DNA of 64,000 nucleotides from Escherichia phage AugustSocin (MZ501052), one strand, 5' to 3'; shown: positions 4,963-32,894, counted from the stretch's first letter. The notes: generated from the sequence alone by a model not told the origin. A program made the numbers and translations.

Positions 4963-6587
<1,625 letters not shown>

Positions 6588-6588
<1 letters not shown>

Positions 6589-6836
6589 TGGAAGGTTTAA
6601 TTGAAGCTATTAAATCAAACGACCTCGTAGCCGCTCGTAAATTATTTGCTGAAGCCATGGCTGCAAGAACGATTGATTTAATTAAAGAAGAAAAAATCGC
6701 TATCGCTCGTAATTTCTTAATCGAAGGTGAAGAACCTGATGACGAGGATGATGACGAAGACGAAGATAGTGATGATAAAGACGACAAAAAAGACAAAGAT
6801 TCTGATGAAGATGACGAAGACGAGGATGATGAATAA
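6588..6836 (+). CDS. 67: prohead core protein with polyacidic C-terminus
   Basis: 82 aa, TAATG overlap with gene 20 stop; C-terminal run of D/E residues. Confidence 0.8.
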
Positions 6837-7261
6837 TGCTTCTGATCCCTGAAACTCATGAATTAGTTCTCGAGAATGTCGAAGCACTTATTCCTGAAGC
6901 ACAGGGTCGCTTTGACGAATTGTCTTCTGCTTTAAATAAAGACGATATAAATACAATTGTCGAGAATATGCTTGATGATGAAACTGATTTAGCGGTTGCA
7001 TTAGCTTCTATTAATGAAAATATGCCGCTAAATGAATTTATCGTTAAACATGTTTCCGCCCGTGGTGAAATTACTCGCACTAAAGACCGCAAAACGCGTG
7101 AACGTAATGCATTTCAAACCACTGGGTTGTCTAAAGCAAAACGTAGACAAATTGCTCGTAAAGCTACCAAAACGAAGATTGCCAATCCAGCAGGTCAATC
7201 TCGTGCTCAGCGTAAGCGTAAAAAAGCTCTTAAACGCCGTAAAGCATTAGGATTAAGCTAA
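6836..7261 (+). CDS. 68: prohead core protein
   Basis: 141 aa, basic C-terminus, position between 67 and 21 as in T4. Confidence 0.8.
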
Positions 7262-25693: not shown

Positions 25694-26658
25694 TGTATTC
25701 TTTAGAGGAATTTAATAATCAAGCAATAAACGCAGACTTCCAACGTAATAATATGTTCAGCTGTGTTTTTGCTACAACTCCATCAACTAAAAGCTCATCG
25801 TTAATAAGCTCAATTAGTAACTTTGCTTATAATAACTTGGGTCTAAATTCAGATTGGTTGGGATTAACTCAAGGTGATATTAATCAGGGAATTACCACGC
25901 TAATTACCGCTGGCACACAAAAACTAATAAGAAAATCGGGAGTCAGTAAATATCTTATTGGAGCTATGAGTCAGCGTACTGTTCAGAGTTTATTAGGCTC
26001 ATTTACAGTTGGTACATATTTAATTGACTTCTTTAATATGGCATATAACTCATCTGGATTGATGATATATTCAGTAAAAATGCCAGAGAATAGATTATCC
26101 TATGAAACTGACTGGAACTATAATTCTCCTAATATTCGTATAACTGGGAGAGAATTAGACCCTTTGGTTATTTCATTTAGAATGGATTCAGAAGCATGTA
26201 ACTATCGTGCAATGCAAGACTGGGTTAACGCTGTTCAAGACCCAGTAACTGGATTACGCGCTTTGCCACAAGATGTCGAGGCAGATATTCAGGTTAATCT
26301 TCATTCTCGCAATGGATTACCTCATACTGCGGTGATGTTCACAGGATGCATTCCAATATCAGTGAGCGCTCCTGAGTTATCATATGATGGAGATAACCAA
26401 ATAACTACATTTGATGTTACTTTTGCGTACAGAGTGATGCAGGCTGGAGCAGTTGATAGGCAAGCTGCGCTTGAATGGCTTGAATCTGCTGCTATAAATG
26501 GTATTCAAAGCGTTCTCGGAAATAGTGGAGGTGTTACTGGACTATCTAATTCGCTTTCACGACTTAGTAGATTAGGAGGGACTGCTGGAAGCATTTCAAA
26601 CATTAATACTATGACAGGAATTGTTAATTCGCAGAGTAAAATATTAGGAGCAATATAA
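25693..26658 (+). CDS. 54: baseplate tail tube initiator
   Basis: 321 aa, T4 gp54 position. Confidence 0.9.
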   Translation: MYSLEEFNNQAINADFQRNNMFSCVFATTPSTKSSSLISSISNFAYNNLGLNSDWLGLTQGDINQGITTLITAGTQKLIRKSGVSKYLIGAMSQRTVQSLLGSFTVGTYLIDFFNMAYNSSGLMIYSVKMPENRLSYETDWNYNSPNIRITGRELDPLVISFRMDSEACNYRAMQDWVNAVQDPVTGLRALPQDVEADIQVNLHSRNGLPHTAVMFTGCIPISVSAPELSYDGDNQITTFDVTFAYRVMQAGAVDRQAALEWLESAAINGIQSVLGNSGGVTGLSNSLSRLSRLGGTAGSISNINTMTGIVNSQSKILGAI

Positions 26659-26662
26659 CAAT

Positions 26663-26680
26663 GGGGACCTTTCGGTCCCC
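26663..26680. terminator. hairpin terminator after gene 54
   Basis: GGGGACC-TTTC-GGTCCCC followed by ATATTTTTAT; also just past the minus-strand 96-aa ORF. Confidence 0.65.
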
Positions 26681-26686
26681 ATATTT

Positions 26687-26977
26687 TTATTTACGGAATG
26701 AAATGAAAGCAGAAACTGAAGCAACTAAACTGTCTTCAATATAAACTTCAATTTTTACCGGAGCTTCTGACTCGAATTTACCTGTTACTACACCTTGGAA
26801 AATACTTTCAGTTTGTTCTGGCTTTGAAAAATTTTCAGAAGGAAAAATTCCGAACTTTTTATCTGTTCCAAAAATTTTGATAAATTCATCATAAACTGCT
26901 TCATTGAAAGCGTTATCAGCGGGAATAACGCCTTCAACGACGAGTTCTTGACCTAAAAAGCGCAAAGAAGATTTCAT
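26687..26977 (-). CDS. hypothetical protein downstream of the alt genes
   Basis: 96-aa ORF preceded by a strong sigma70-like promoter and GAGGA ribosome-binding site. Confidence 0.55.
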   Translation of the reverse strand: MKSSLRFLGQELVVEGVIPADNAFNEAVYDEFIKIFGTDKKFGIFPSENFSKPEQTESIFQGVVTGKFESEAPVKIEVYIEDSLVASVSAFISFRK

Positions 26978-27008
26978 TTTGTGTTCCTCATGTTATGTCA
27001 GTAAGATT

Positions 27009-27037
27009 ATTATAACACAACACGAGGGACTTGTAAA
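27009..27037 (-). promoter_or_regulatory. sigma70-type early promoter before the 96-aa ORF
   Basis: minus strand GTTTACA, 17-nt spacer, TATAAT; inverted repeat GTCCCTC.../...GAGGA spans the spacer and ribosome-binding site. Confidence 0.6.
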
Positions 27038-29095
27038 CTACATTTTGAACTTTTTAGACATTCCGTTGATGTTAACCAAAGAAGCTAAGATTTGAGAAAC
27101 TTCGTTTTCCTCTTCTTTTGATTCTTCTACAAGGAATTGATTAAATCCAGCCATTGGACGAACTTCACCAGTTTCCATCAGATGGTCGCCATCATATACT
27201 GATTCTTCTAATTGTTCAGAAGGAGGAACGATTGTACCTTCGATTAGATACTTGTTATAAGCAGTTTCTTTCATCATGTACGTACTTACTTTATTAATCT
27301 TCAGTAAAATTCCACGCGGCAAAATAACTTCAGCTTCGGATGGAAATCCTGATAAATGACCTGGAACGATAACTTTAACTCGTTCAGCTCCTTTAATTAC
27401 CATACCTACATTAGTTTCAGCGTCTTCATTCGCATATGTAGAATGACTACCCATATGCATTAAATCTTCAGCATCAACTGAACCTTCTCCTTCACCAGAA
27501 AATACTGCTCCGGAATCATCTAAGGCCATATAATTTTTACCATATTCACCGAAGATATTTGGCTTGAGTGAAGTAGATACAAAGTTCTTGAAATAGAACA
27601 TTTTATTTTCTATATTATGACGTAAAGTTTTAAAGGTAACTTCTTGCCCACGATAAAGAGTAGTTCCTGGAGGAAGAACTGAACCTTTAGAAAATGCAGA
27701 ATCCAGCGTCTCAATATGTTTAATAGCTCGTTCCATATATTCTTCACGGGTAGAATCAGGTTTACCTAGAAGGAACGAGTTCATTTCAACATATGAATCT
27801 GCGCAATAATCTTCAATTACATCAGACTCAGCCTGAGTTAATCCTTTTGGAGTTACTTCAGTGCTTGCATATTCATATGCCTGAGCAGCAGATTCATCAA
27901 TTAATTTATAAATTCCATTCATTACAAATTGAATAATAGCTGTCTTTTCATCTGGTGTAGCTTTAGAACCTTTAACTAAATCATTGACAATTTTCTTAAT
28001 AACATCAAAGCTATTAGAAATATTAATGTCAGCAAGATCGCTTAAAATTTTATCAGTTTTATAATCAAAGAATTCTTTATTCTTTAAATATTCTTGAGAA
28101 CCTTGATATGTTATATCGCTCTGCGGCTTGATAGATGGATCGCGTAAACGTGCATGGGCCAATGCAATATGATTTCGGAAGCTTTCGAGTTCATAATCAC
28201 TAGATTTAAAACGAGAAGCACTTCTCATACCACCGATAGCTCCTTTGCTAAAGTTTGAACCAACCTGAATAACGCCAGAGTTCATTGGTCCTTCTGCTTT
28301 ATATACCGGAACTTTAGATTCAAACTCTTGATATTTCTTAGCAGCGAAGCTATCACCCTGAAGTGAAGCATCAACAGTAGAATATTGAGCTTGTGCTGCT
28401 AATCGACGACTAATTTTAGTTTTCTGAATAACAGCTTGATCCGTGCGCTTATCATTTTCTAAAGCAATAGAAGCAGCAACAGCAACAGCTTTAGGAACAG
28501 CATTACCTGTTTTAACGTCTACATAAACATCACCAACCTTTGATTCAACTTTTGTGAATAACTCGGTTGAAATAGGAGGTACACCTGGAATGTCTTCTAA
28601 ATTGGCATTTTTACGGTAAACCATAATATATGCGTACTTTTTATCATAATCCCAGATTTCCTTTAAAAGAACATATCGACCTGCTCCTTTAGTACGTACT
28701 AAACGGTCAGCAATAACTTGCATTTGCCGAGCAGCGCCATTTGTTTTACTTTTTAGTACGCGGAATAAGCATGCATCAATTTTATACTGTTTCATTGTTT
28801 GAAGAGCAGTATCAAAAACAGCATTAATGACGCCAATTGGATTTCCACCCAAGTTTTTAAGCTTAACTAATGATAGTTTCTCATTAACACCTATCATTAC
28901 GATATGCATCATTTTGTCGCCTGGCTTAACGTTTTTATTCGTATCACCGCCAGAGGTGTATGTACAAAATCTAAATCCAGGAAGCACGCTTTCTTCACCT
29001 GCTTGAATAGCAAAAATTTGAGGTATTTTATGCTTAGGATTTAAGTTAACAACCGGCGCCGAAGCGCCGTCAAATAATTCTGTAATAAGTTCCAT
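27038..29095 (-). CDS. Alt-like ADP-ribosyltransferase paralog
   Basis: 685 aa; N-terminus MELITELFD and first ~200 aa similar to the adjacent alt; R (YRGQ), STS (FVSTSL) and E-x-E (SEAEVILPRG) motifs present. Confidence 0.8.
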   Translation of the reverse strand: MELITELFDGASAPVVNLNPKHKIPQIFAIQAGEESVLPGFRFCTYTSGGDTNKNVKPGDKMMHIVMIGVNEKLSLVKLKNLGGNPIGVINAVFDTALQTMKQYKIDACLFRVLKSKTNGAARQMQVIADRLVRTKGAGRYVLLKEIWDYDKKYAYIMVYRKNANLEDIPGVPPISTELFTKVESKVGDVYVDVKTGNAVPKAVAVAASIALENDKRTDQAVIQKTKISRRLAAQAQYSTVDASLQGDSFAAKKYQEFESKVPVYKAEGPMNSGVIQVGSNFSKGAIGGMRSASRFKSSDYELESFRNHIALAHARLRDPSIKPQSDITYQGSQEYLKNKEFFDYKTDKILSDLADINISNSFDVIKKIVNDLVKGSKATPDEKTAIIQFVMNGIYKLIDESAAQAYEYASTEVTPKGLTQAESDVIEDYCADSYVEMNSFLLGKPDSTREEYMERAIKHIETLDSAFSKGSVLPPGTTLYRGQEVTFKTLRHNIENKMFYFKNFVSTSLKPNIFGEYGKNYMALDDSGAVFSGEGEGSVDAEDLMHMGSHSTYANEDAETNVGMVIKGAERVKVIVPGHLSGFPSEAEVILPRGILLKINKVSTYMMKETAYNKYLIEGTIVPPSEQLEESVYDGDHLMETGEVRPMAGFNQFLVEESKEEENEVSQILASLVNINGMSKKFKM

Positions 29096-29098
29096 GAT

Positions 29099-31192
29099 TT
29101 ATCCTTGAACGAACTTGTAAGGCATGTTTGTAATATCTATGCAAGACGCAATAATTCCAAGAGATGATTCTACTTTCTGTTTAATATTTGATGAAACAAA
29201 TGATGCAAAGTCAACTCTGTCTTCTATTTCAATATCACCTGTCATTGCAACCAATTCACCAGTTTCCATTAAATGGTCTCCATCATAGATTACCGATTCG
29301 GTGAGCTCTTCCGTGGTCATAACTTCAGCTTGAATGAGTTTTGTATTATTAGATGTTGTTCCGTCATTATTAGAAGCATCGGTTATTTTATTAACTTTGA
29401 CCATCAATCCACGCGGTAGAATAACTTCAGCTTCTGTTGCTATTCCGAGACTTCCTGGATATACAACATTAACTTTATGAGCTCCATCAATTGCCCATCC
29501 TATTTGAACTTTAACATATTCAGGATTTTCTTTATACGCTCTTATTTCGTTTGGATTAATAGTTATTCCTTCTTCATTTTTATCAACTGTTAATTCATTG
29601 CGAGCTTCTGGTTCTAAAAGACCAATACCAGCATGTGTGATTCCAAAACGTCCAAAAATGATAGGAGTTAAAGAAGTAGATACAAAATTTCTGAAGTAGA
29701 ACACTTTATTTTTAACTAACGCTTCATATATAGGAGCAGTCATACTTTGAGCACGATAAACTGTAATGCCTTCTGGTATACGGTCACCATTTTCAAAAGC
29801 TGAATCTAAGTTATTTATAGCAGATTCAATTTCTTTTTCACTCATTACATCGTATCGTTCTGGATTGTAACGACCTAAAAGAAGATTATTGATGTCAGTA
29901 TATCCTGAACCGCAATATTCTCTAATGCCACGCTTTTGTGATGGAGTATATTTAGAACCATCGCGGGCAATAGTAATATCAATCATTGGACCAGCACCAA
30001 TTCCAGAAAAACTGTAAATCATTCGTTTGAGGAATTTAGTTTTTGCTGCGTTCCAGGAATTTTTAGTTATTTCTTCCCAGACTTCATCTGGTTGTCCTTT
30101 ACGATTTTTATTATGATTAGCAAGCCATTTATCTTTATAATCTTCAAAGAATTGATTTACAGCTGCTGCGTATTTCTCTAAACATTTTATTGAAGTAGTT
30201 GGTTCATTTTTAATTGCATTAAAAATTACTTCTTTAATTTTTTCTGAAACTTCACCGACTTGACTCATTGGAAAGAATTTATAATCATAGTGAAGTTCAT
30301 CTGCCGTTCCTTCAGCAATAATTTTTGCTGCCTTTGTTTTAGAAGCTAATGAATTAATTCCAATTTTCATTTCTTCTGCTTCGGGAATTAAAGGTGCAGT
30401 AGCTGGTTTATTAAAATTGGCTGCTGTAGATTCATACTTCTGGAATAATTCACTTTCAAATCTAGAAGATTCCAATGACTGACTTTGTGCAATTGCTCTA
30501 CGGGAAATTTTAACTTTAACGATTACAGCTTGGTCAGAACGTTTATCATTTTCTTGTGCAATAGATGCTGCAATTGCTTCATTTTTAGTTACTTGAGCTC
30601 CAGTATCTTTATTGATATAAACATCACCGACCTTCGATTCAACTTTAGTAAAGAGTTCAGTGCTAATTTCTGGAACTCCTGGAATGTCTTCTAATGATAC
30701 ATTTTTGCGATGTATAAGAATATATGCATACTTTTTATCGTAATCCCAGAGTTCCTTAAGAAGGACGTATCTGCCACCTGAACGACTACGGATAAGTCTA
30801 TCAGCAATAACTTGAATTTGTCGAGCTTGGCCAGCAGTTTTAGACTTAAGAATACGAAGCATGCAGGCATCAATTTTATATTGACGCATCGTTTGCATTG
30901 CAACAGTAAAAACTGAATTGATATAATTAATTGGGCTTGGACCAAGACCTTTTAATTTAGCAATTGAGCCTTTAGCAGTTAATGTAAAAGGAACAATATG
31001 CATCATTTTATCGCCCATCTTTAAATCGCGATTAGTATCACCTCCAGATGTATAGGTACATAAACGAAAGCCTGGTTGTTCAATTGCATCATCAACATGA
31101 ACTGAAAAAATTTGTGGTATTTTCTTCTTTGGATTTAAGTTTGTAATCGGAAGAGTAGTATCTTCGTCAAATAATTCTGTAATAAGTTCCAT
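29099..31192 (-). CDS. alt: Alt ADP-ribosyltransferase
   Basis: 697 aa; N-terminus MELITELFDEDTTLPITNLNPKKK as I recall for T4 Alt; YRAQ, FVSTSL and TEAEVILPRG motifs. Confidence 0.85.
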   Translation of the reverse strand: MELITELFDEDTTLPITNLNPKKKIPQIFSVHVDDAIEQPGFRLCTYTSGGDTNRDLKMGDKMMHIVPFTLTAKGSIAKLKGLGPSPINYINSVFTVAMQTMRQYKIDACMLRILKSKTAGQARQIQVIADRLIRSRSGGRYVLLKELWDYDKKYAYILIHRKNVSLEDIPGVPEISTELFTKVESKVGDVYINKDTGAQVTKNEAIAASIAQENDKRSDQAVIVKVKISRRAIAQSQSLESSRFESELFQKYESTAANFNKPATAPLIPEAEEMKIGINSLASKTKAAKIIAEGTADELHYDYKFFPMSQVGEVSEKIKEVIFNAIKNEPTTSIKCLEKYAAAVNQFFEDYKDKWLANHNKNRKGQPDEVWEEITKNSWNAAKTKFLKRMIYSFSGIGAGPMIDITIARDGSKYTPSQKRGIREYCGSGYTDINNLLLGRYNPERYDVMSEKEIESAINNLDSAFENGDRIPEGITVYRAQSMTAPIYEALVKNKVFYFRNFVSTSLTPIIFGRFGITHAGIGLLEPEARNELTVDKNEEGITINPNEIRAYKENPEYVKVQIGWAIDGAHKVNVVYPGSLGIATEAEVILPRGLMVKVNKITDASNNDGTTSNNTKLIQAEVMTTEELTESVIYDGDHLMETGELVAMTGDIEIEDRVDFASFVSSNIKQKVESSLGIIASCIDITNMPYKFVQG

Positions 31193-31228
31193 GTTATCCT
31201 CTCTAGTGTTTATTCTATTTATAAAATT

Positions 31229-31247
31229 AAAGGCCCGAAGGCCTTTA
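31229..31247 (-). other. intercistronic hairpin upstream of alt
   Basis: AAAGGCC-CGAAG-GCCTTT between the 61-aa ORF and the alt start. Confidence 0.45.
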
Positions 31248-31248
31248 A

Positions 31249-31434
31249 TTAATAGAGAGCTAAAAGAGTACGATATACTTCAAACTTTGGACCTTTTTCA
31301 TATGGATCAAATCTTTCCGTGAATTCATCATATGCTAGTTTATCTGGGAATTCAAGAATAACCTGCGATACCGCAGTGGAAACATCTCCACCTTCTTTTT
31401 GAGCCACGACAATTGTTTCTAAGTAAGCTTTCAT
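31249..31434 (-). CDS. hypothetical small protein
   Basis: 61-aa ORF whose start overlaps the ligase stop. Confidence 0.5.
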   Translation of the reverse strand: MKAYLETIVVAQKEGGDVSTAVSQVILEFPDKLAYDEFTERFDPYEKGPKFEVYRTLLALY

Positions 31435-32894
31435 AAACCAGTTACCTCATGAAAATCGCCAAATACATCTTCGAACGTATTAGCTTTAGTTTTATCTTCA
31501 CGTAAACGAATTGCAATTGGAAGAAATAGCTTAACGTAATCAGTACGTCCATCTAATTTTACCCAGCCGTTGCATTCGCACTCTAGAATTTTTCCAATAT
31601 AATAATTTTGGTTTTCCATAATGCGAGTACGATCAAGTTCATGCGATTTTATACCGGCTTTATCTTTTAAGCCTGAACCAGCATTTACTTTAATTTTTCC
31701 ACACTCTGATTCAAGAATGAAACCACCTGCTTTAGTAGGGTCTTTACGGTGAGGATAAATTCCTACAATTTTTAAATCAACATCAATTACTTCTTTAAAT
31801 TTATAAAGATTTTTTGAACGAGCATTTTCCCATAATCCATCGATATTTTTAAGAATAATACCTTCAAGACCTTGGTCAATATACTTTTTATAAATTACCT
31901 TAGCTTCATCTAGGTTATTTACTACTTGGTTTTCAATTAAAATTACTTTATCATAGCCTGATGTCATTTGTTCTAGTTTAGAAAAACGTACATCATATTT
32001 TAAACGAAATGCTGGAAGACCATATATTTCTACTAATGGAACATAGTCCCAGACCTGAAACTTCATGCATTGTGCTTCTTTTTCAGAAATGGTTCCCTTT
32101 AAAGATTTATTAGCGATTCCATTAGAAGTAGTACGTGATTCAGCTACTTCGGCGAATTCTTTAGCTTTACTAATTTCAGGATAAGCATCAAAAAGAAAAT
32201 CTAGGCCTTCTGGTTCCTTTTTAACTTGCTCATGGTATACCAATTCGCCATCAATTAACACACCTTCTGGATGAATCTGGCGAGCTTCTGCAGTCATTTT
32301 GATTAACTCTTCCTTGAGAAGATCTAATCCTAGATATTCATTACCAGCTCGTGATAAAAGACGAACATCATCTAATTCATCACCTCTGACTTCAGCAAAA
32401 CAGCGAGCTCCATCAGCTTTTAGCTGTGCAAAGGCTGGAAATTTGATATTCTTATTAATGCCTTTTTCGTCATAAGAACTTGCTAGCATTTGAGGTTGTT
32501 CAGGAATTAAACCTGGCCAAACTTTGTTTGCAATAGATACTGATGCACCGCATTCAAGGTCTCGCATCATCACCCGACGCAAAACTTCAACATCATCTTT
32601 TTTACCGTCAGTAATATATCCAGTTAATTCCTCAATTGCCGCATTTCCAGTCAATTTCCGAGTAGCTAACGTGAATTCAATGAAGTCAAGCATATCGGTA
32701 AGAGTCAACATTCCAAAACTCTGGGTAGTAATACCCGGTTTAGGCCATTTCTTGATATAATACTGTAACCCACGAGAATAAGTCAGACGATATACTCGTT
32801 TAAGCAATTCATTATCTTTATTCTTTTCAAGAATTGCTTGCTTCTGCTTAGTTGAACCAATAGATGCTATTTCGTTCAGAATTTTAAGAATCAT
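31431..32894 (-). CDS. 30: ATP-dependent DNA ligase
   Basis: 487 aa; matches recalled T4 DNA ligase (MILKILNEIASIGSTKQKQAILEKNKDNELLKRVY...). Confidence 0.97.
   Translation of the reverse strand: MILKILNEIASIGSTKQKQAILEKNKDNELLKRVYRLTYSRGLQYYIKKWPKPGITTQSFGMLTLTDMLDFIEFTLATRKLTGNAAIEELTGYITDGKKDDVEVLRRVMMRDLECGASVSIANKVWPGLIPEQPQMLASSYDEKGINKNIKFPAFAQLKADGARCFAEVRGDELDDVRLLSRAGNEYLGLDLLKEELIKMTAEARQIHPEGVLIDGELVYHEQVKKEPEGLDFLFDAYPEISKAKEFAEVAESRTTSNGIANKSLKGTISEKEAQCMKFQVWDYVPLVEIYGLPAFRLKYDVRFSKLEQMTSGYDKVILIENQVVNNLDEAKVIYKKYIDQGLEGIILKNIDGLWENARSKNLYKFKEVIDVDLKIVGIYPHRKDPTKAGGFILESECGKIKVNAGSGLKDKAGIKSHELDRTRIMENQNYYIGKILECECNGWVKLDGRTDYVKLFLPIAIRLREDKTKANTFEDVFGDFHEVTGL

What the first reader, a model, noticed from the sequence alone, without database searches (positions are those of the whole stretch)
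27038..31192. Two tandem Alt-like ADP-ribosyltransferase genes, both with catalytic motifs
Adjacent minus-strand ORFs of 697 aa (29099-31192) and 685 aa (27038-29095) are separated by 3 nt. Both start MELITELFD and share the first ~200 residues closely, diverge in the middle, and both keep an Arg motif (YRAQ / YRGQ), FVSTSL, and E-x-E within xEAEVILPRG. Both therefore look catalytically competent. I recall T4 Alt as a virion-packaged, injected enzyme that modifies host RNA polymerase, and the shared N-terminus suggests both could be packaged. I am not certain whether reference T4 has the same second copy under an alt.-N name, so this may be a known arrangement.
Basis: partly seen in the sequence, partly recalled or inferred. 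Interest (0 to 1): 0.45.

Follow-up and report, generated by a model that had tools for sequence, protein, structure and literature searches.

The report
Two tandem Alt ADP-ribosyltransferase genes
This T4-like phage carries two adjacent, intact genes for Alt-type enzymes that the virus probably injects to modify host proteins; this is the usual, already annotated layout in T-even phages (T2, T6 and about 400 others), and laboratory T4 is the exception because it deleted most of the second gene.

Summary
Copy A is 29099-31192(-), 697 aa. Copy B is 27038-29095(-), 685 aa. They lie 3 nt apart and are 42% identical: 68% in residues 1-238, 13% in the middle, 38% in the catalytic domain.

Both pass Pfam ADPrib_exo_Tox and keep the R / S-T-S / E-x-E residues in aligned, family-invariant columns. 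A model of B matches C3/iota/Vis toxin folds.

Copy B is a working gene. It is intact in all 10 phages compared, with dN/dS 0.045.

Both copies keep the two prohead-protease (gp21) cleavage motifs mapped experimentally in T4 Alt (ITE-6 and L-x-E near residue 630), so B is probably packaged and injected too. This is inferred, not shown.

It is not new. About 400 GenBank phage records, including T2 and T6, hold B, and many annotate both genes as Alt-like. Papers from 2006 and 2026 describe such paralogs.

T4's alt.-1/alt.-2 is the wreck of copy B: a 1,699-bp deletion between two 9-bp repeats, plus a 1-nt frameshift.

Extras found here: copy A's catalytic cassette is swapped between phage genera, and natural single-gene A/B fusions exist (phage PST). 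B's targets remain untested.

The parts
29099..31192 (-). Copy A, 697 aa. It is the positional and sequence ortholog of T4 alt (Alt-like ADP-ribosyltransferase, T2/T6-type central cassette).
   Evidence: ORF. It is 71% identical to T4 Alt overall: 100% in aa 1-244, about 96% at the C-terminus and 27-64% in between. Pfam PF03496 E 1e-37. PHROG 802 E 8e-273. dN/dS 0.052 over 9 phages.
27038..29095 (-). Copy B, 685 aa. It is a second Alt-like ADP-ribosyltransferase, the intact form of the gene whose remnant is T4 alt.-1/alt.-2.
   Evidence: ORF. Pfam PF03496 E 2e-20. PHROG 802 E 1e-256. dN/dS 0.045 and intact at 685 codons in 10 of 10 phages. AF2 model plus Foldseek matches to Vis, CDTa, C3 and iota. 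T4 alt.-1/-2 DNA is 95.7% identical to B nt 1-348.
30479..31192 (-). Copy A N-terminal module (aa 1-238; Pfam PF26846 Tevenvirinae_ADPRT). It includes the 6-residue propeptide MELITE, with the predicted gp21 cut after E6.
   Evidence: 100% identical to T4 Alt over this region. ITE-6 processing of T4 Alt is reported in PMC5694885. dN/dS 0.003.
28382..29095 (-). Copy B N-terminal module (aa 1-238), 68% identical to A's. It has the same MELITE propeptide and is the presumed packaging/delivery module.
   Evidence: The domain folds confidently on its own (pLDDT 84, pTM 0.82). Natural A-N/B-body fusions show the two modules are interchangeable.
29312..29956 (-). Copy A ART catalytic domain (aa 413-627): R480, S505-T-S507, E587-x-E589.
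   Evidence: The PDB sequence hits to CDTa and iota Ia align the Arg and the ExE. It is 95-96% aa identical to Dhakavirus alta but 66% to T4 Alt.
27221..27850 (-). Copy B ART catalytic domain (aa 416-625): R482, S507-T-S509, E587-x-E589.
   Evidence: Foldseek probability 1.00 to Vis, CDTa, Certhrax, C3bot, VIP2 and iota. dN/dS 0.040 in this region.
29102..29296 (-). Copy A predicted C-terminal propeptide (aa 633-697), after LTE-632.
   Evidence: It aligns with T4 LTE-619, the mapped gp21 site.
27041..27202 (-). Copy B predicted C-terminal propeptide (aa 632-685), after LEE-631. It contains the conserved YDGDHLMETGE.
   Evidence: The L-x-E motif lies at the position equivalent to T4 LTE-619. 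E631 is invariant in A2. Residues 629-685 are disordered in the model (pLDDT below 50).
31216..31223 (-). T4-type late promoter TATAAATA, 23 nt before the ATG of copy A and followed by the Shine-Dalgarno sequence GAGAGGA. It probably drives an A-B bicistronic late mRNA.
   Evidence: Function is inferred from the consensus and its position only.
31229..31246 (-). Hairpin AAAGGCC-TTCG-GGCCTTT followed by a T-rich run. It is a terminator-like structure between alt.1 and the late promoter.
   Evidence: Seen in the sequence. RNA fold -17.7 kcal/mol, z -5.7.
29096..29110 (-). A-B junction: ..CAAGGATAAATCATG. The Shine-Dalgarno sequence (AAGGA) for B lies inside the last codons of A, and the intergenic gap is 3 nt.
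   Evidence: alignment. The same junction is kept upstream of T4 alt.-1.
28748..28756 (-). Upstream copy of the 9-bp direct repeat CTAAAAAGT (B nt 340-348). It is the left end of the deletion that created T4 alt.-1/alt.-2.
27049..27057 (-). Downstream copy of the 9-bp direct repeat CTAAAAAGT (B nt 2039-2047). It is the right end of the T4 deletion, 1,699 bp from the first copy.
27009..27037 (-). Sigma-70-type promoter TTTACA-17-TATAAT (11 of 12 matches, with TG) directly after B's stop codon. It probably serves alt.-3.
   Evidence: This is a consensus match only.
26687..26977 (-). alt.-3 homolog (96 aa, DUF5498), the downstream neighbour.
   Evidence: Pfam PF17602 E 5e-64. T4 synteny.
31249..31434 (-). 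alt.1 homolog (61 aa, Pfam Phage_blade), the upstream neighbour. The DNA ligase gene 30 follows at 31431-32894.
26661..26682 (.). Bidirectional terminator-like hairpin between gene 54 (+) and alt.-3 (-). It closes the minus-strand unit.

Best explanation
The window comes from a Tequatrovirus (T-even phage). It carries the common two-gene form of the alt locus.

Copy A is the ortholog of T4 alt. Copy B is an old paralog of it.

Both encode three-part proteins:
(i) a conserved N-terminal module of about 240 residues, preceded by a 6-residue propeptide;
(ii) a helical middle region that differs almost completely between A and B;
(iii) a C3/iota-type R-S-E mono-ADP-ribosyltransferase domain with an E-x-E (arginine-specific type) motif, followed by a C-terminal propeptide.

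Proposed mechanism:
- Both genes are transcribed late from the TATAAATA promoter in front of A. B is translated from its own Shine-Dalgarno sequence on the same mRNA.
- Both precursors enter the prohead core through the shared N-terminal module and propeptides.
- The prohead protease gp21 trims them after E6 and after L-x-E (E632 in A, E631 in B), giving products of about 70 and 69 kDa.
- Both are ejected with the DNA and ADP-ribosylate arginines of host proteins using NAD+.
- Their target sets differ, because the middle region and the 76-78-residue segment between the STS and ExE motifs are unrelated.

What is shown here: gene structure, homology, motif conservation, purifying selection, conservation of the cleavage motifs, and the distribution across phages.

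What is inferred: co-transcription, packaging, cleavage, injection, enzymatic activity and distinct targets.
For: Homology and motifs.

Fold: the AF2 model of B has pLDDT 73 (80-90 in the ART region), and Foldseek matches Vis, CDTa, C3, VIP2 and iota with probability 1.00.

Functional constraint: B has dN/dS 0.045 overall and 0.040 in the ART domain, at dS 0.19, and is intact in 10 of 10 phages. A has dN/dS 0.052.

Age: A versus B N-module dS is 1.46, so the duplication is old. A- and B-type orthologs exist in Dhakavirus as alta and altb.

Packaging logic:
- T4 Alt is a head protein of about 40 copies, cut by gp21 at ITE-6 and LTE-619 (PMC9026906 and PMC5694885).
- Both motifs are kept in A and B, and the two glutamates are at least 90% conserved family-wide.
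- The model's disordered ends (residues 1-11 and 629-685) coincide with the predicted propeptides.
- My mass calculation reproduces the published 68.2 kDa for mature T4 Alt.
- Natural in-frame fusions of A's N-terminus to B's body, with four different crossover points, include the cultured phage PST.

Expression: a late promoter lies 23 nt before A, none lies directly before B, the gap is 3 nt, and a Shine-Dalgarno sequence precedes B.
Against: - The papers and libraries I could search hold no protein-level evidence (virion mass spectrometry or activity assay) for copy B.
- T4 and about 91 related records lack B. PST and ECML-134 lack A's body. Neither copy is therefore essential, and alt itself is non-essential in T4 (PMC9026906).
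- Distinct target specificity is inferred only from sequence divergence.
- A second TATAAATA inside A (29812-29819) could be a chance match.
Confidence: 0.6

Rival explanations
1. Copy B is a functional ADP-ribosyltransferase, but it is redundant with copy A. It is packaged in the same way and modifies the same main target (RNA polymerase alpha Arg265). It would serve as a dose increase or a backup rather than as a second specificity.
For: The two belong to the same family, with the same E-x-E type motif and the same N- and C-terminal processing motifs. T4 lost B with no known defect. T4 already shows overlapping specificity between Alt and ModA on alpha Arg265 (PMC2988021).
Against: The middle region is 13% identical and the ART domain 38% identical. 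The 76-78-residue STS-to-ExE segment is unrelated. Both paralog lineages are kept as separate types across two genera and are each under strong purifying selection in hundreds of genomes. That is not expected for simple redundancy.
Confidence: 0.2
2. Copy B is an active enzyme but is not a virion protein. It acts inside the producing cell late in infection, or it is made but not packaged.
For: No proteomic evidence for B in virions was found. B has no late promoter of its own directly upstream. T4's other ARTs, ModA and ModB, are not packaged (PMC5512222).
Against: B keeps the whole Alt-specific N-terminal module, the MELITE propeptide and the C-terminal L-x-E site with the YDGDHLMETGE propeptide. 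These are the features that distinguish the packaged Alt from ModA and ModB. In PST, the only Alt protein is a fusion of A's first ~100 residues to the rest of B (the remainder of B's N-module plus its effector body). B lies 3 nt behind a late gene.
Confidence: 0.12
3. Copy B is a decaying duplicate or a catalytically dead pseudo-enzyme on its way to the state seen in T4.
For: T4 and about 91 records carry only a frameshifted, truncated remnant, so loss does happen.
Against: B is intact at exactly 685 codons in 10 of 10 diverse phages, with dN/dS 0.045 at dS 0.19. R, S-T-S and E-x-E are all invariant. The variable middle is at least 95% conserved in about 400 records.
Confidence: 0.03

Closest known systems
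Bacteriophage T4 Alt (gpAlt, NP_049811), the head-packaged, injected NAD+:arginine mono-ADP-ribosyltransferase
   Same: Copy A is its ortholog. It sits in the same position between alt.1/gene 30 and alt.-3/gene 54, is 100% identical over residues 1-244 and about 96% at the C-terminus, and has the same motifs and gp21 sites. Copy B shares the architecture, the N-module (67%), the propeptide and cleavage motifs and the catalytic residues.
   Different: Copy A's central and catalytic cassette is a different allele, 27-64% aa identical to T4's and 95% identical to the Dhakavirus alta ART domain. Copy B is only 41% identical overall, with an unrelated middle region. T4 retains only its first ~348 nt, as alt.-1/alt.-2.
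T4 alt.-1 / alt.-2 (NP_049810, NP_049809), annotated as 'an old duplication of the first part of gene alt'
   Same: Their DNA is 95.7% identical to nt 1-348 of window copy B, and the T4 sequence then continues into B's last ~20 nt and the alt.-3 promoter. PHROGs built on these fragments match B far better than A.
   Different: In T4 the gene is broken by a 1-nt deletion and by a 1,699-bp deletion between two CTAAAAAGT repeats that are both present in the intact gene here. So the T4 ORFs are a deletion remnant of a full-length paralog, not a partial duplication.
Second Alt-like genes annotated in T2 (PV648364), T6 (NC_054907), RB32-type phages, wV7, ime09 ('alt.-2'), Sf25 ('distinct from Sf25gp49 and T4 Alt') and 6phi13/SHFML-11 (PMC13600099)
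   Same: This is the same gene at the same position, 96-99.7% aa identical in the variable region. The 2026 paper reports the same pair at 43.29% identity.
   Different: Nothing of substance. This window is one more instance, 99.5% identical to vB_EcoM-UFV05/06/09/10/11 over the locus.
C3 exoenzyme / iota Ia / CDTa / VIP2 / Vis family of bacterial R-S-E ADP-ribosylating toxins (Pfam PF03496)
   Same: They share the catalytic fold and the R, S-T-S and E-x-E motifs.
   Different: Sequence identity is only 14-19%. The Alt proteins carry a phage-specific N-terminal module and a helical middle region, and they have a 67-78-residue insertion between STS and ExE. Delivery is by virion ejection, not by a binary-toxin pore or secretion.
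T4 internal proteins (IPI-III) with a capsid targeting sequence, and polymorphic toxin loci
   Same: They show a similar logic: a conserved delivery or targeting part joined to variable cargo, with cassettes exchanged by recombination (the A cassette is shared with Dhakavirus, and A/B fusions occur). The capsid targeting sequence concept is described in PMC9026906.
   Different: Here the cargo is always an ART. 57 of 61 representatives carrying the N-module have PF03496, and no other Pfam family appears. The conserved part is a folded 240-residue domain rather than a 10-residue peptide. This is an analogy only, not membership.

Membership tests
R-S-E (C3/VIP2/iota-like) mono-ADP-ribosyltransferases, Pfam PF03496 ADPrib_exo_Tox | Significant match to the family profile, above the curated cut-off (23.4 bits) | tested here: met
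   A scores 129.9 bits (E 1e-37) and B scores 73.5 bits (E 2e-20).
R-S-E (C3/VIP2/iota-like) mono-ADP-ribosyltransferases, Pfam PF03496 ADPrib_exo_Tox | Catalytic Arg (aromatic-R on strand 1), S-T-S motif and E-x-E in the ARTT loop, in aligned columns | tested here: met
   A has R480, S505-T-S507 and E587-x-E589. B has R482, S507-T-S509 and E587-x-E589. These are invariant in 20 sequences and at least 90% conserved in 61 representatives. The Arg and the ExE of A align to CDTa and iota Ia.
R-S-E (C3/VIP2/iota-like) mono-ADP-ribosyltransferases, Pfam PF03496 ADPrib_exo_Tox | ART fold | tested here: met
   The AF2 model of B (pLDDT 73; ART region mostly 75-90) matches Vis (E 7e-8), CDTa, Certhrax, C3bot, VIP2 and iota with Foldseek probability 1.00 and target TM up to 0.63. 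This is a predicted structure, not a solved one. A was not modelled.
R-S-E (C3/VIP2/iota-like) mono-ADP-ribosyltransferases, Pfam PF03496 ADPrib_exo_Tox | NAD+-dependent transfer of ADP-ribose to a protein arginine | not testable with these tools
   This needs an enzyme assay.
T4 Alt family (PHROG 802; Pfam PF26846 Tevenvirinae_ADPRT + PF03496) | Full-length architecture: Alt-specific N-terminal module plus C-terminal ART | tested here: met
   PHROG 802 matches end to end for A (E 8e-273) and B (E 1e-256). PF26846 is precomputed on B-type homologs. The N-module profile finds only 73 representatives, and 57 of the 61 full-length ones scanned have the ART domain.
T4 Alt family (PHROG 802; Pfam PF26846 Tevenvirinae_ADPRT + PF03496) | Conserved genome position between gene 30/alt.1 and alt.-3/gene 54, next to the baseplate genes | tested here: met
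   The same order is seen in T2, T6, ime09, wV7, Sf25, PYps55T and others.
T4 Alt family (PHROG 802; Pfam PF26846 Tevenvirinae_ADPRT + PF03496) | gp21 prohead-protease processing sites (ITE-6 and LTE-619 in T4 Alt) | tested here: met
   The motifs are present: ITE-6 in both copies, LTE-632 in A and LEE-631 in B. The reference sites come from PMC5694885. Actual cleavage was not testable.
T4 Alt family (PHROG 802; Pfam PF26846 Tevenvirinae_ADPRT + PF03496) | Late expression | tested here: inconclusive
   TATAAATA lies 23 nt before A's ATG. B has none directly upstream and is assumed to be co-transcribed. No transcript data were available.
T4 Alt family (PHROG 802; Pfam PF26846 Tevenvirinae_ADPRT + PF03496) | Presence in the mature head and ejection into the host with the DNA | not testable with these tools
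   No virion proteomics covering copy B was found in the searchable papers.
T4 Alt family (PHROG 802; Pfam PF26846 Tevenvirinae_ADPRT + PF03496) | ADP-ribosylation of RNA polymerase alpha Arg265 ('alteration') | not testable with these tools
   This is known for T4 Alt only (PMC2988021). It is untested both for the T2/T6-type cassette of A and for B.

The most novel reading that the evidence does not exclude
Most T-even phages, unlike laboratory T4, inject two different arginine ADP-ribosyltransferases. Copy B would have its own host target set, possibly including host defence or translation factors rather than RNA polymerase alpha. The alt locus would then behave as a polymorphic effector locus: a genus-specific delivery module joined to ART cassettes that are swapped between genera, duplicated (up to three in WG01), fused (PST) or deleted (T4), according to the host. 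If so, the T4-based picture of early host takeover by 'alteration' is incomplete for the group as a whole.
Probability: 0.4. Interest if true: 0.5.

Novelty: already known. Interest (0 to 1): 0.25.

Why it matters
In itself this is ordinary: a correctly read, already annotated gene pair in a phage that is 99.5% identical to sequenced isolates.

It is still useful to know that T4, the model phage, is the degenerate case. About 400 GenBank phage records, including T2 and T6, keep a second, strongly conserved Alt-type enzyme, and I found no report that it has been tested biochemically.

All knowledge of injected ADP-ribosylation comes from T4. A distinct second injected enzyme would therefore add an unstudied layer of immediate host takeover or counter-defence.

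The locus also gives a clean natural example of modular effector evolution: cassette exchange, unequal crossover and microhomology deletion.

Tried and rejected
- PDB sequence search with B gave no hit. With A it gave only weak CDTa and iota hits. No Alt structure is solved.
- NCBIfam has no model for either protein.
- Literature searches for virion proteomics or biochemistry of a second Alt found only descriptive mentions (PMC1524935, PMC13600099). One attempt failed on term syntax.
- I tested whether the N-module is a general delivery domain fused to non-ART cargo, and rejected the idea. 57 of 61 representatives carry PF03496 and no other Pfam family appears. Three of the four exceptions show degenerate ART motifs on inspection.
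- I considered recent gene conversion as the reason A and B share their N-termini, and rejected it. Synonymous divergence there is near saturation (dS 1.46).
- I considered that the single-gene A/B chimeras in metagenome contigs are assembly artefacts. This is rejected for at least one junction type, because the cultured phages PST and ECML-134 match the single-gene locus in one uninterrupted piece (the crossover itself was mapped in PST only).
- The TATAAATA inside A (29812-29819) was not pursued as a B promoter. It lies 717 nt upstream of B, and such octamers are expected about 9 times by chance in the window.
- The third fold search and the remaining homolog searches were not used, as they would not have changed the verdict.

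Full report
OBSERVATION. Copy A is 29099-31192 (697 aa) and copy B is 27038-29095 (685 aa). A's TAA and B's ATG are separated by 3 nt. Both begin MELITELFD. BLASTP gives 42% identity over the full length (E 6e-161). By region, identity is 68% in residues 1-238, 13% in 239-415, 38% in the catalytic domain and 42% in the C-terminal tail. Both pass Pfam ADPrib_exo_Tox well above the curated cut-off: A at E 1e-37 and B at E 2e-20. Both match PHROG 802, 'Alt-like RNA polymerase ADP-ribosyltransferase', end to end.

The catalytic residues align column for column with T4 Alt:
- A: R480, S505-T-S507, E587-x-E589.
- B: R482, S507-T-S509, E587-x-E589.
- T4 Alt: R478, S503-T-S505, E574-x-E576.

They are invariant in a 20-sequence family alignment. 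They are at least 90% conserved across 61 representatives clustered at 50% identity.

CONTEXT. The window is a Tequatrovirus. The locus 26600-31500 is 99.5% identical to Escherichia phages vB_EcoM-UFV05/06/09/10/11, and 356 GenBank phage records cover at least 80% of it. The gene order is 29, 48 and 54 on the plus strand, then alt.-3 (DUF5498), copy B, copy A, alt.1 and DNA ligase 30 on the minus strand. This is the T4 order.

A T4-type late promoter, TATAAATA (31223-31216), lies 23 nt before A's ATG. It sits just after a strong hairpin (31246-31229; -17.7 kcal/mol, z -5.7) that follows alt.1. B has no such promoter directly upstream. It does have its own Shine-Dalgarno sequence (AAGGA) inside A's last codons, so co-transcription with A is the simplest reading. 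This is inferred. Directly after B's stop codon lies a near-consensus sigma-70 promoter (TTTACA-17-TATAAT), which probably serves alt.-3.

WHAT REFERENCE T4 HAS. T4 (NC_000866) carries one full alt gene (682 aa) followed by two small ORFs, alt.-1 and alt.-2. The record's note describes them as an old duplication of the first part of alt.

Copy A is the T4 alt ortholog at 71% identity. Copy B is only 41% identical to T4 Alt.

At the DNA level, the T4 alt.-1/alt.-2 segment is 95.7% identical to nt 1-348 of copy B, with a single 1-nt deletion that shifts the frame. It then continues at 96.3% identity into B nt 2039 onwards and the alt.-3 promoter. The two blocks overlap by the 9-mer CTAAAAAGT. 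In the intact gene this 9-mer occurs at both ends of the missing segment (window 28748-28756 and 27049-27057, 1,699 bp apart). PHROGs built from the T4 fragments match B far better than A (2e-40 and 3e-38 against 1e-21 and 2e-19).

So T4's alt.-1/alt.-2 is the remnant of a full-length copy B, lost by a deletion between short direct repeats plus a frameshift. It is not a partial duplication of alt.

DISTRIBUTION AND PRIOR KNOWLEDGE.
- B's variable middle region is at least 95% identical in about 400 phage records, including classical T2 (PV648364) and T6 (NC_054907). Both records annotate two 'Alt-like RNA polymerase ADP-ribosyltransferase' genes.
- ime09 labels the gene alt.-2. Sf25 notes that it is 'distinct from Sf25gp49 and T4 Alt'. 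wV7 refers to RB32ORF194c.
- Only about 91 records share T4's truncated junction.
- Nolan et al. 2006 (PMC1524935) already recorded alt paralogs next to alt in T4-like phages, including T4 alt.-1/alt.-2 and a full-length duplicate in 44RR.
- A 2026 paper (PMC13600099) describes exactly this pair, at 43.29% identity, in 6phi13 and SHFML-11, and only speculates about divergence of function.
- Dhakaviruses carry two copies (IME08 alta and altb) or three (WG01).

The arrangement is therefore known and annotated. I found no experimental work on the second copy in the searchable literature.

IS COPY B A WORKING GENE? Across 10 Tequatroviruses B is always 685 codons long with no stop. The mean dS is 0.19 and dN/dS is 0.045. 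By region, dN/dS is 0.019 in the N-module, 0.079 in the middle, 0.040 in the ART domain and 0.058 in the C-terminal tail. Copy A of the same type gives 0.052.

An AlphaFold2 model of B (mean pLDDT 73, mostly 75-90 in the middle and ART regions) matches solved R-S-E toxins with Foldseek probability 1.00. The matches are Vis, CDTa, Certhrax, C3bot, VIP2 and iota Ia. The E-x-E form of the ARTT motif is the arginine-specific type in this family; this point rests on established knowledge of C3 and iota toxins. B is thus very likely an active arginine mono-ADP-ribosyltransferase, although activity itself was not testable.

IS IT PACKAGED? T4 Alt is a component of the prohead core, at about 40 copies per head, and is ejected with the DNA (PMC9026906). 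Mass spectrometry showed that gp21 cuts it at ITE-6 and at LTE-619, giving a 68.2 kDa product (PMC5694885).

Both window copies keep ITE-6. A keeps LTE-632, and B has LEE-631 at the equivalent place, just before the shared YDGDHLMETGE. Both glutamates are at least 90% conserved across the family.

The disordered ends of the B model (residues 1-11 and 629-685) coincide with the predicted propeptides. My mass calculation reproduces 68.2 kDa for T4 Alt and predicts 70.1 kDa for mature A and 69.1 kDa for mature B. The two would co-migrate on gels.

These points make packaging and processing of B likely. I estimate about 0.7, but it is not shown.

UNEXPECTED EXTRAS.

(1) Copy A is a mosaic.
- Against T4 alt, its flanks are 95-99% identical in DNA, but nt ~720-1880 are only 38-72% identical.
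- Against Dhakavirus alta the pattern is reversed. A nt ~1250-1875, the ART domain, are 86-98% identical in DNA (95-96% aa), while the flanks are only 40-66% identical.
- PYps55T combines a T4-type A with an intact B.
- So the catalytic cassette of A exists in at least two alleles, and one of them has recently been exchanged between genera.

(2) The N-module groups by genus. A and B are 68% identical to each other but only 42-47% identical to the Dhakavirus copies. The middle, ART and C-terminal parts group by paralog type across genera. A-versus-B synonymous divergence in the N-module is near saturation (dS 1.46), so any homogenisation is not recent.

(3) Natural A/B fusions exist. These are single Alt genes with A's promoter and the first part of A's N-terminus joined in frame to the rest of B. 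They show four different crossover points: about nt 155, 300, 550 and 665. The ~300 junction is in the cultured Yersinia phage PST. ECML-134 also matches the single-gene locus in one uninterrupted piece, so these are not merely assembly artefacts. They show that the two N-modules are interchangeable, and that unequal crossover between the tandem paralogs is a recurrent way of losing A's body.

Five locus states were seen:
- A + B, the majority (window, T2, T6).
- A (T4-type) + B.
- A (T4-type) + B remnant, as in T4.
- A/B fusion (PST, ECML-134).
- Two or three copies in Dhakavirus.

MECHANISM AND RIVALS. My best reading (confidence 0.6) has four steps:
- The two genes are co-expressed late.
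- Both products enter the prohead through the shared N-module and propeptides.
- Both are trimmed by gp21 and ejected with the DNA.
- Both ADP-ribosylate host arginines, with different target sets. The basis for different targets is that the middle region and the 76-78-residue STS-to-ExE segment are unrelated.

The rivals are:
- Redundancy with A (0.2).
- An active enzyme that is not packaged (0.12).
- A decaying pseudo-enzyme (0.03), which purifying selection and invariant motifs contradict.

VERDICT. The arrangement is already known and widely annotated, and this window is one more instance of it. What remains open is the biochemistry of copy B. The T4 literature could not address it, because T4 lacks the gene.

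Noticed in passing
window 28748-28756 and 27049-27057 (-); L001 (T4 NC_000866) 6066-6451: T4 alt.-1/alt.-2 derives from a full-length copy B by a 1,699-bp deletion between two CTAAAAAGT direct repeats, plus a 1-nt frameshift. The T4 RefSeq note ('duplication of the first part of gene alt') therefore describes the history imprecisely.
   Followed up: yes
window 29312-30470 (copy A central and ART region); L011 2148-4229 (WG01), L012 2139-4229 (IME08 alta): Copy A is a mosaic. Its flanks are 95-99% nt identical to T4 alt, but its ART region is 86-98% nt identical to Dhakavirus alta and only 38-72% identical to T4. This indicates recent exchange of the catalytic cassette between genera, and at least two cassette alleles within Tequatrovirus.
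   Followed up: partly
L016 902-2962 (Yersinia phage PST NC_027404); L013, L014 and L015 at 5001-7061: Natural single-gene A/B fusions carry A's promoter and part of its N-terminus joined to B's body. They have four different in-frame crossover points (about nt 155, 300, 550, 665), consistent with recurrent unequal crossover between the tandem paralogs. ECML-134 also matches the single-gene locus in one piece; its crossover point was not mapped.
   Followed up: yes
L011 244-6356 (Escherichia phage WG01, Dhakavirus): WG01 has three tandem Alt-like genes (631, 693 and 707 aa). The first has a middle and C-terminal region unlike either the A type or the B type (13-23% identity).
   Followed up: no
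window 28382-29095 and 30479-31192; matrix: The N-terminal module groups by genus (A and B are 68% identical, but only 42-47% identical to Dhakavirus copies). The rest of each protein groups by paralog type across genera. This suggests either past concerted evolution of the N-module or co-evolution with each genus's prohead core. The cause is unresolved.
   Followed up: partly
proteins P0183 (541 aa) and P0182 (1142 aa): These are rare proteins that carry the Alt N-module without a Pfam ART hit. P0183 shows no visible R/STS/ExE motifs and might carry a different cargo. P0182 has a degenerate ART-like region followed by an extension of about 600 residues.
   Followed up: partly
window 27009-27037 (-) and 26687-26977 (-): A near-consensus sigma-70 promoter (11 of 12 matches, with an extended -10 TG) lies directly after B's stop codon and in front of alt.-3 (DUF5498). 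A conserved small gene of unknown function is thus probably expressed early, right next to two late genes. The same promoter is kept in T4.
   Followed up: no
one search hit H169, MG010123.1 'Staphylococcus phage SAJK-IND' 31683-31896: A record labelled as a Staphylococcus phage holds a 214-bp stretch that is 96.7% identical to the T4 alt.-3 region. This probably reflects contamination or misassembly of that record.
   Followed up: no
L004 6998-7186 and 8646-8912 (T6 NC_054907): The T6 RefSeq record names the alt.1 homolog a 'siderophore-interacting protein' and carries other odd 'similar to' notes. These look like annotation transfer errors.
   Followed up: no
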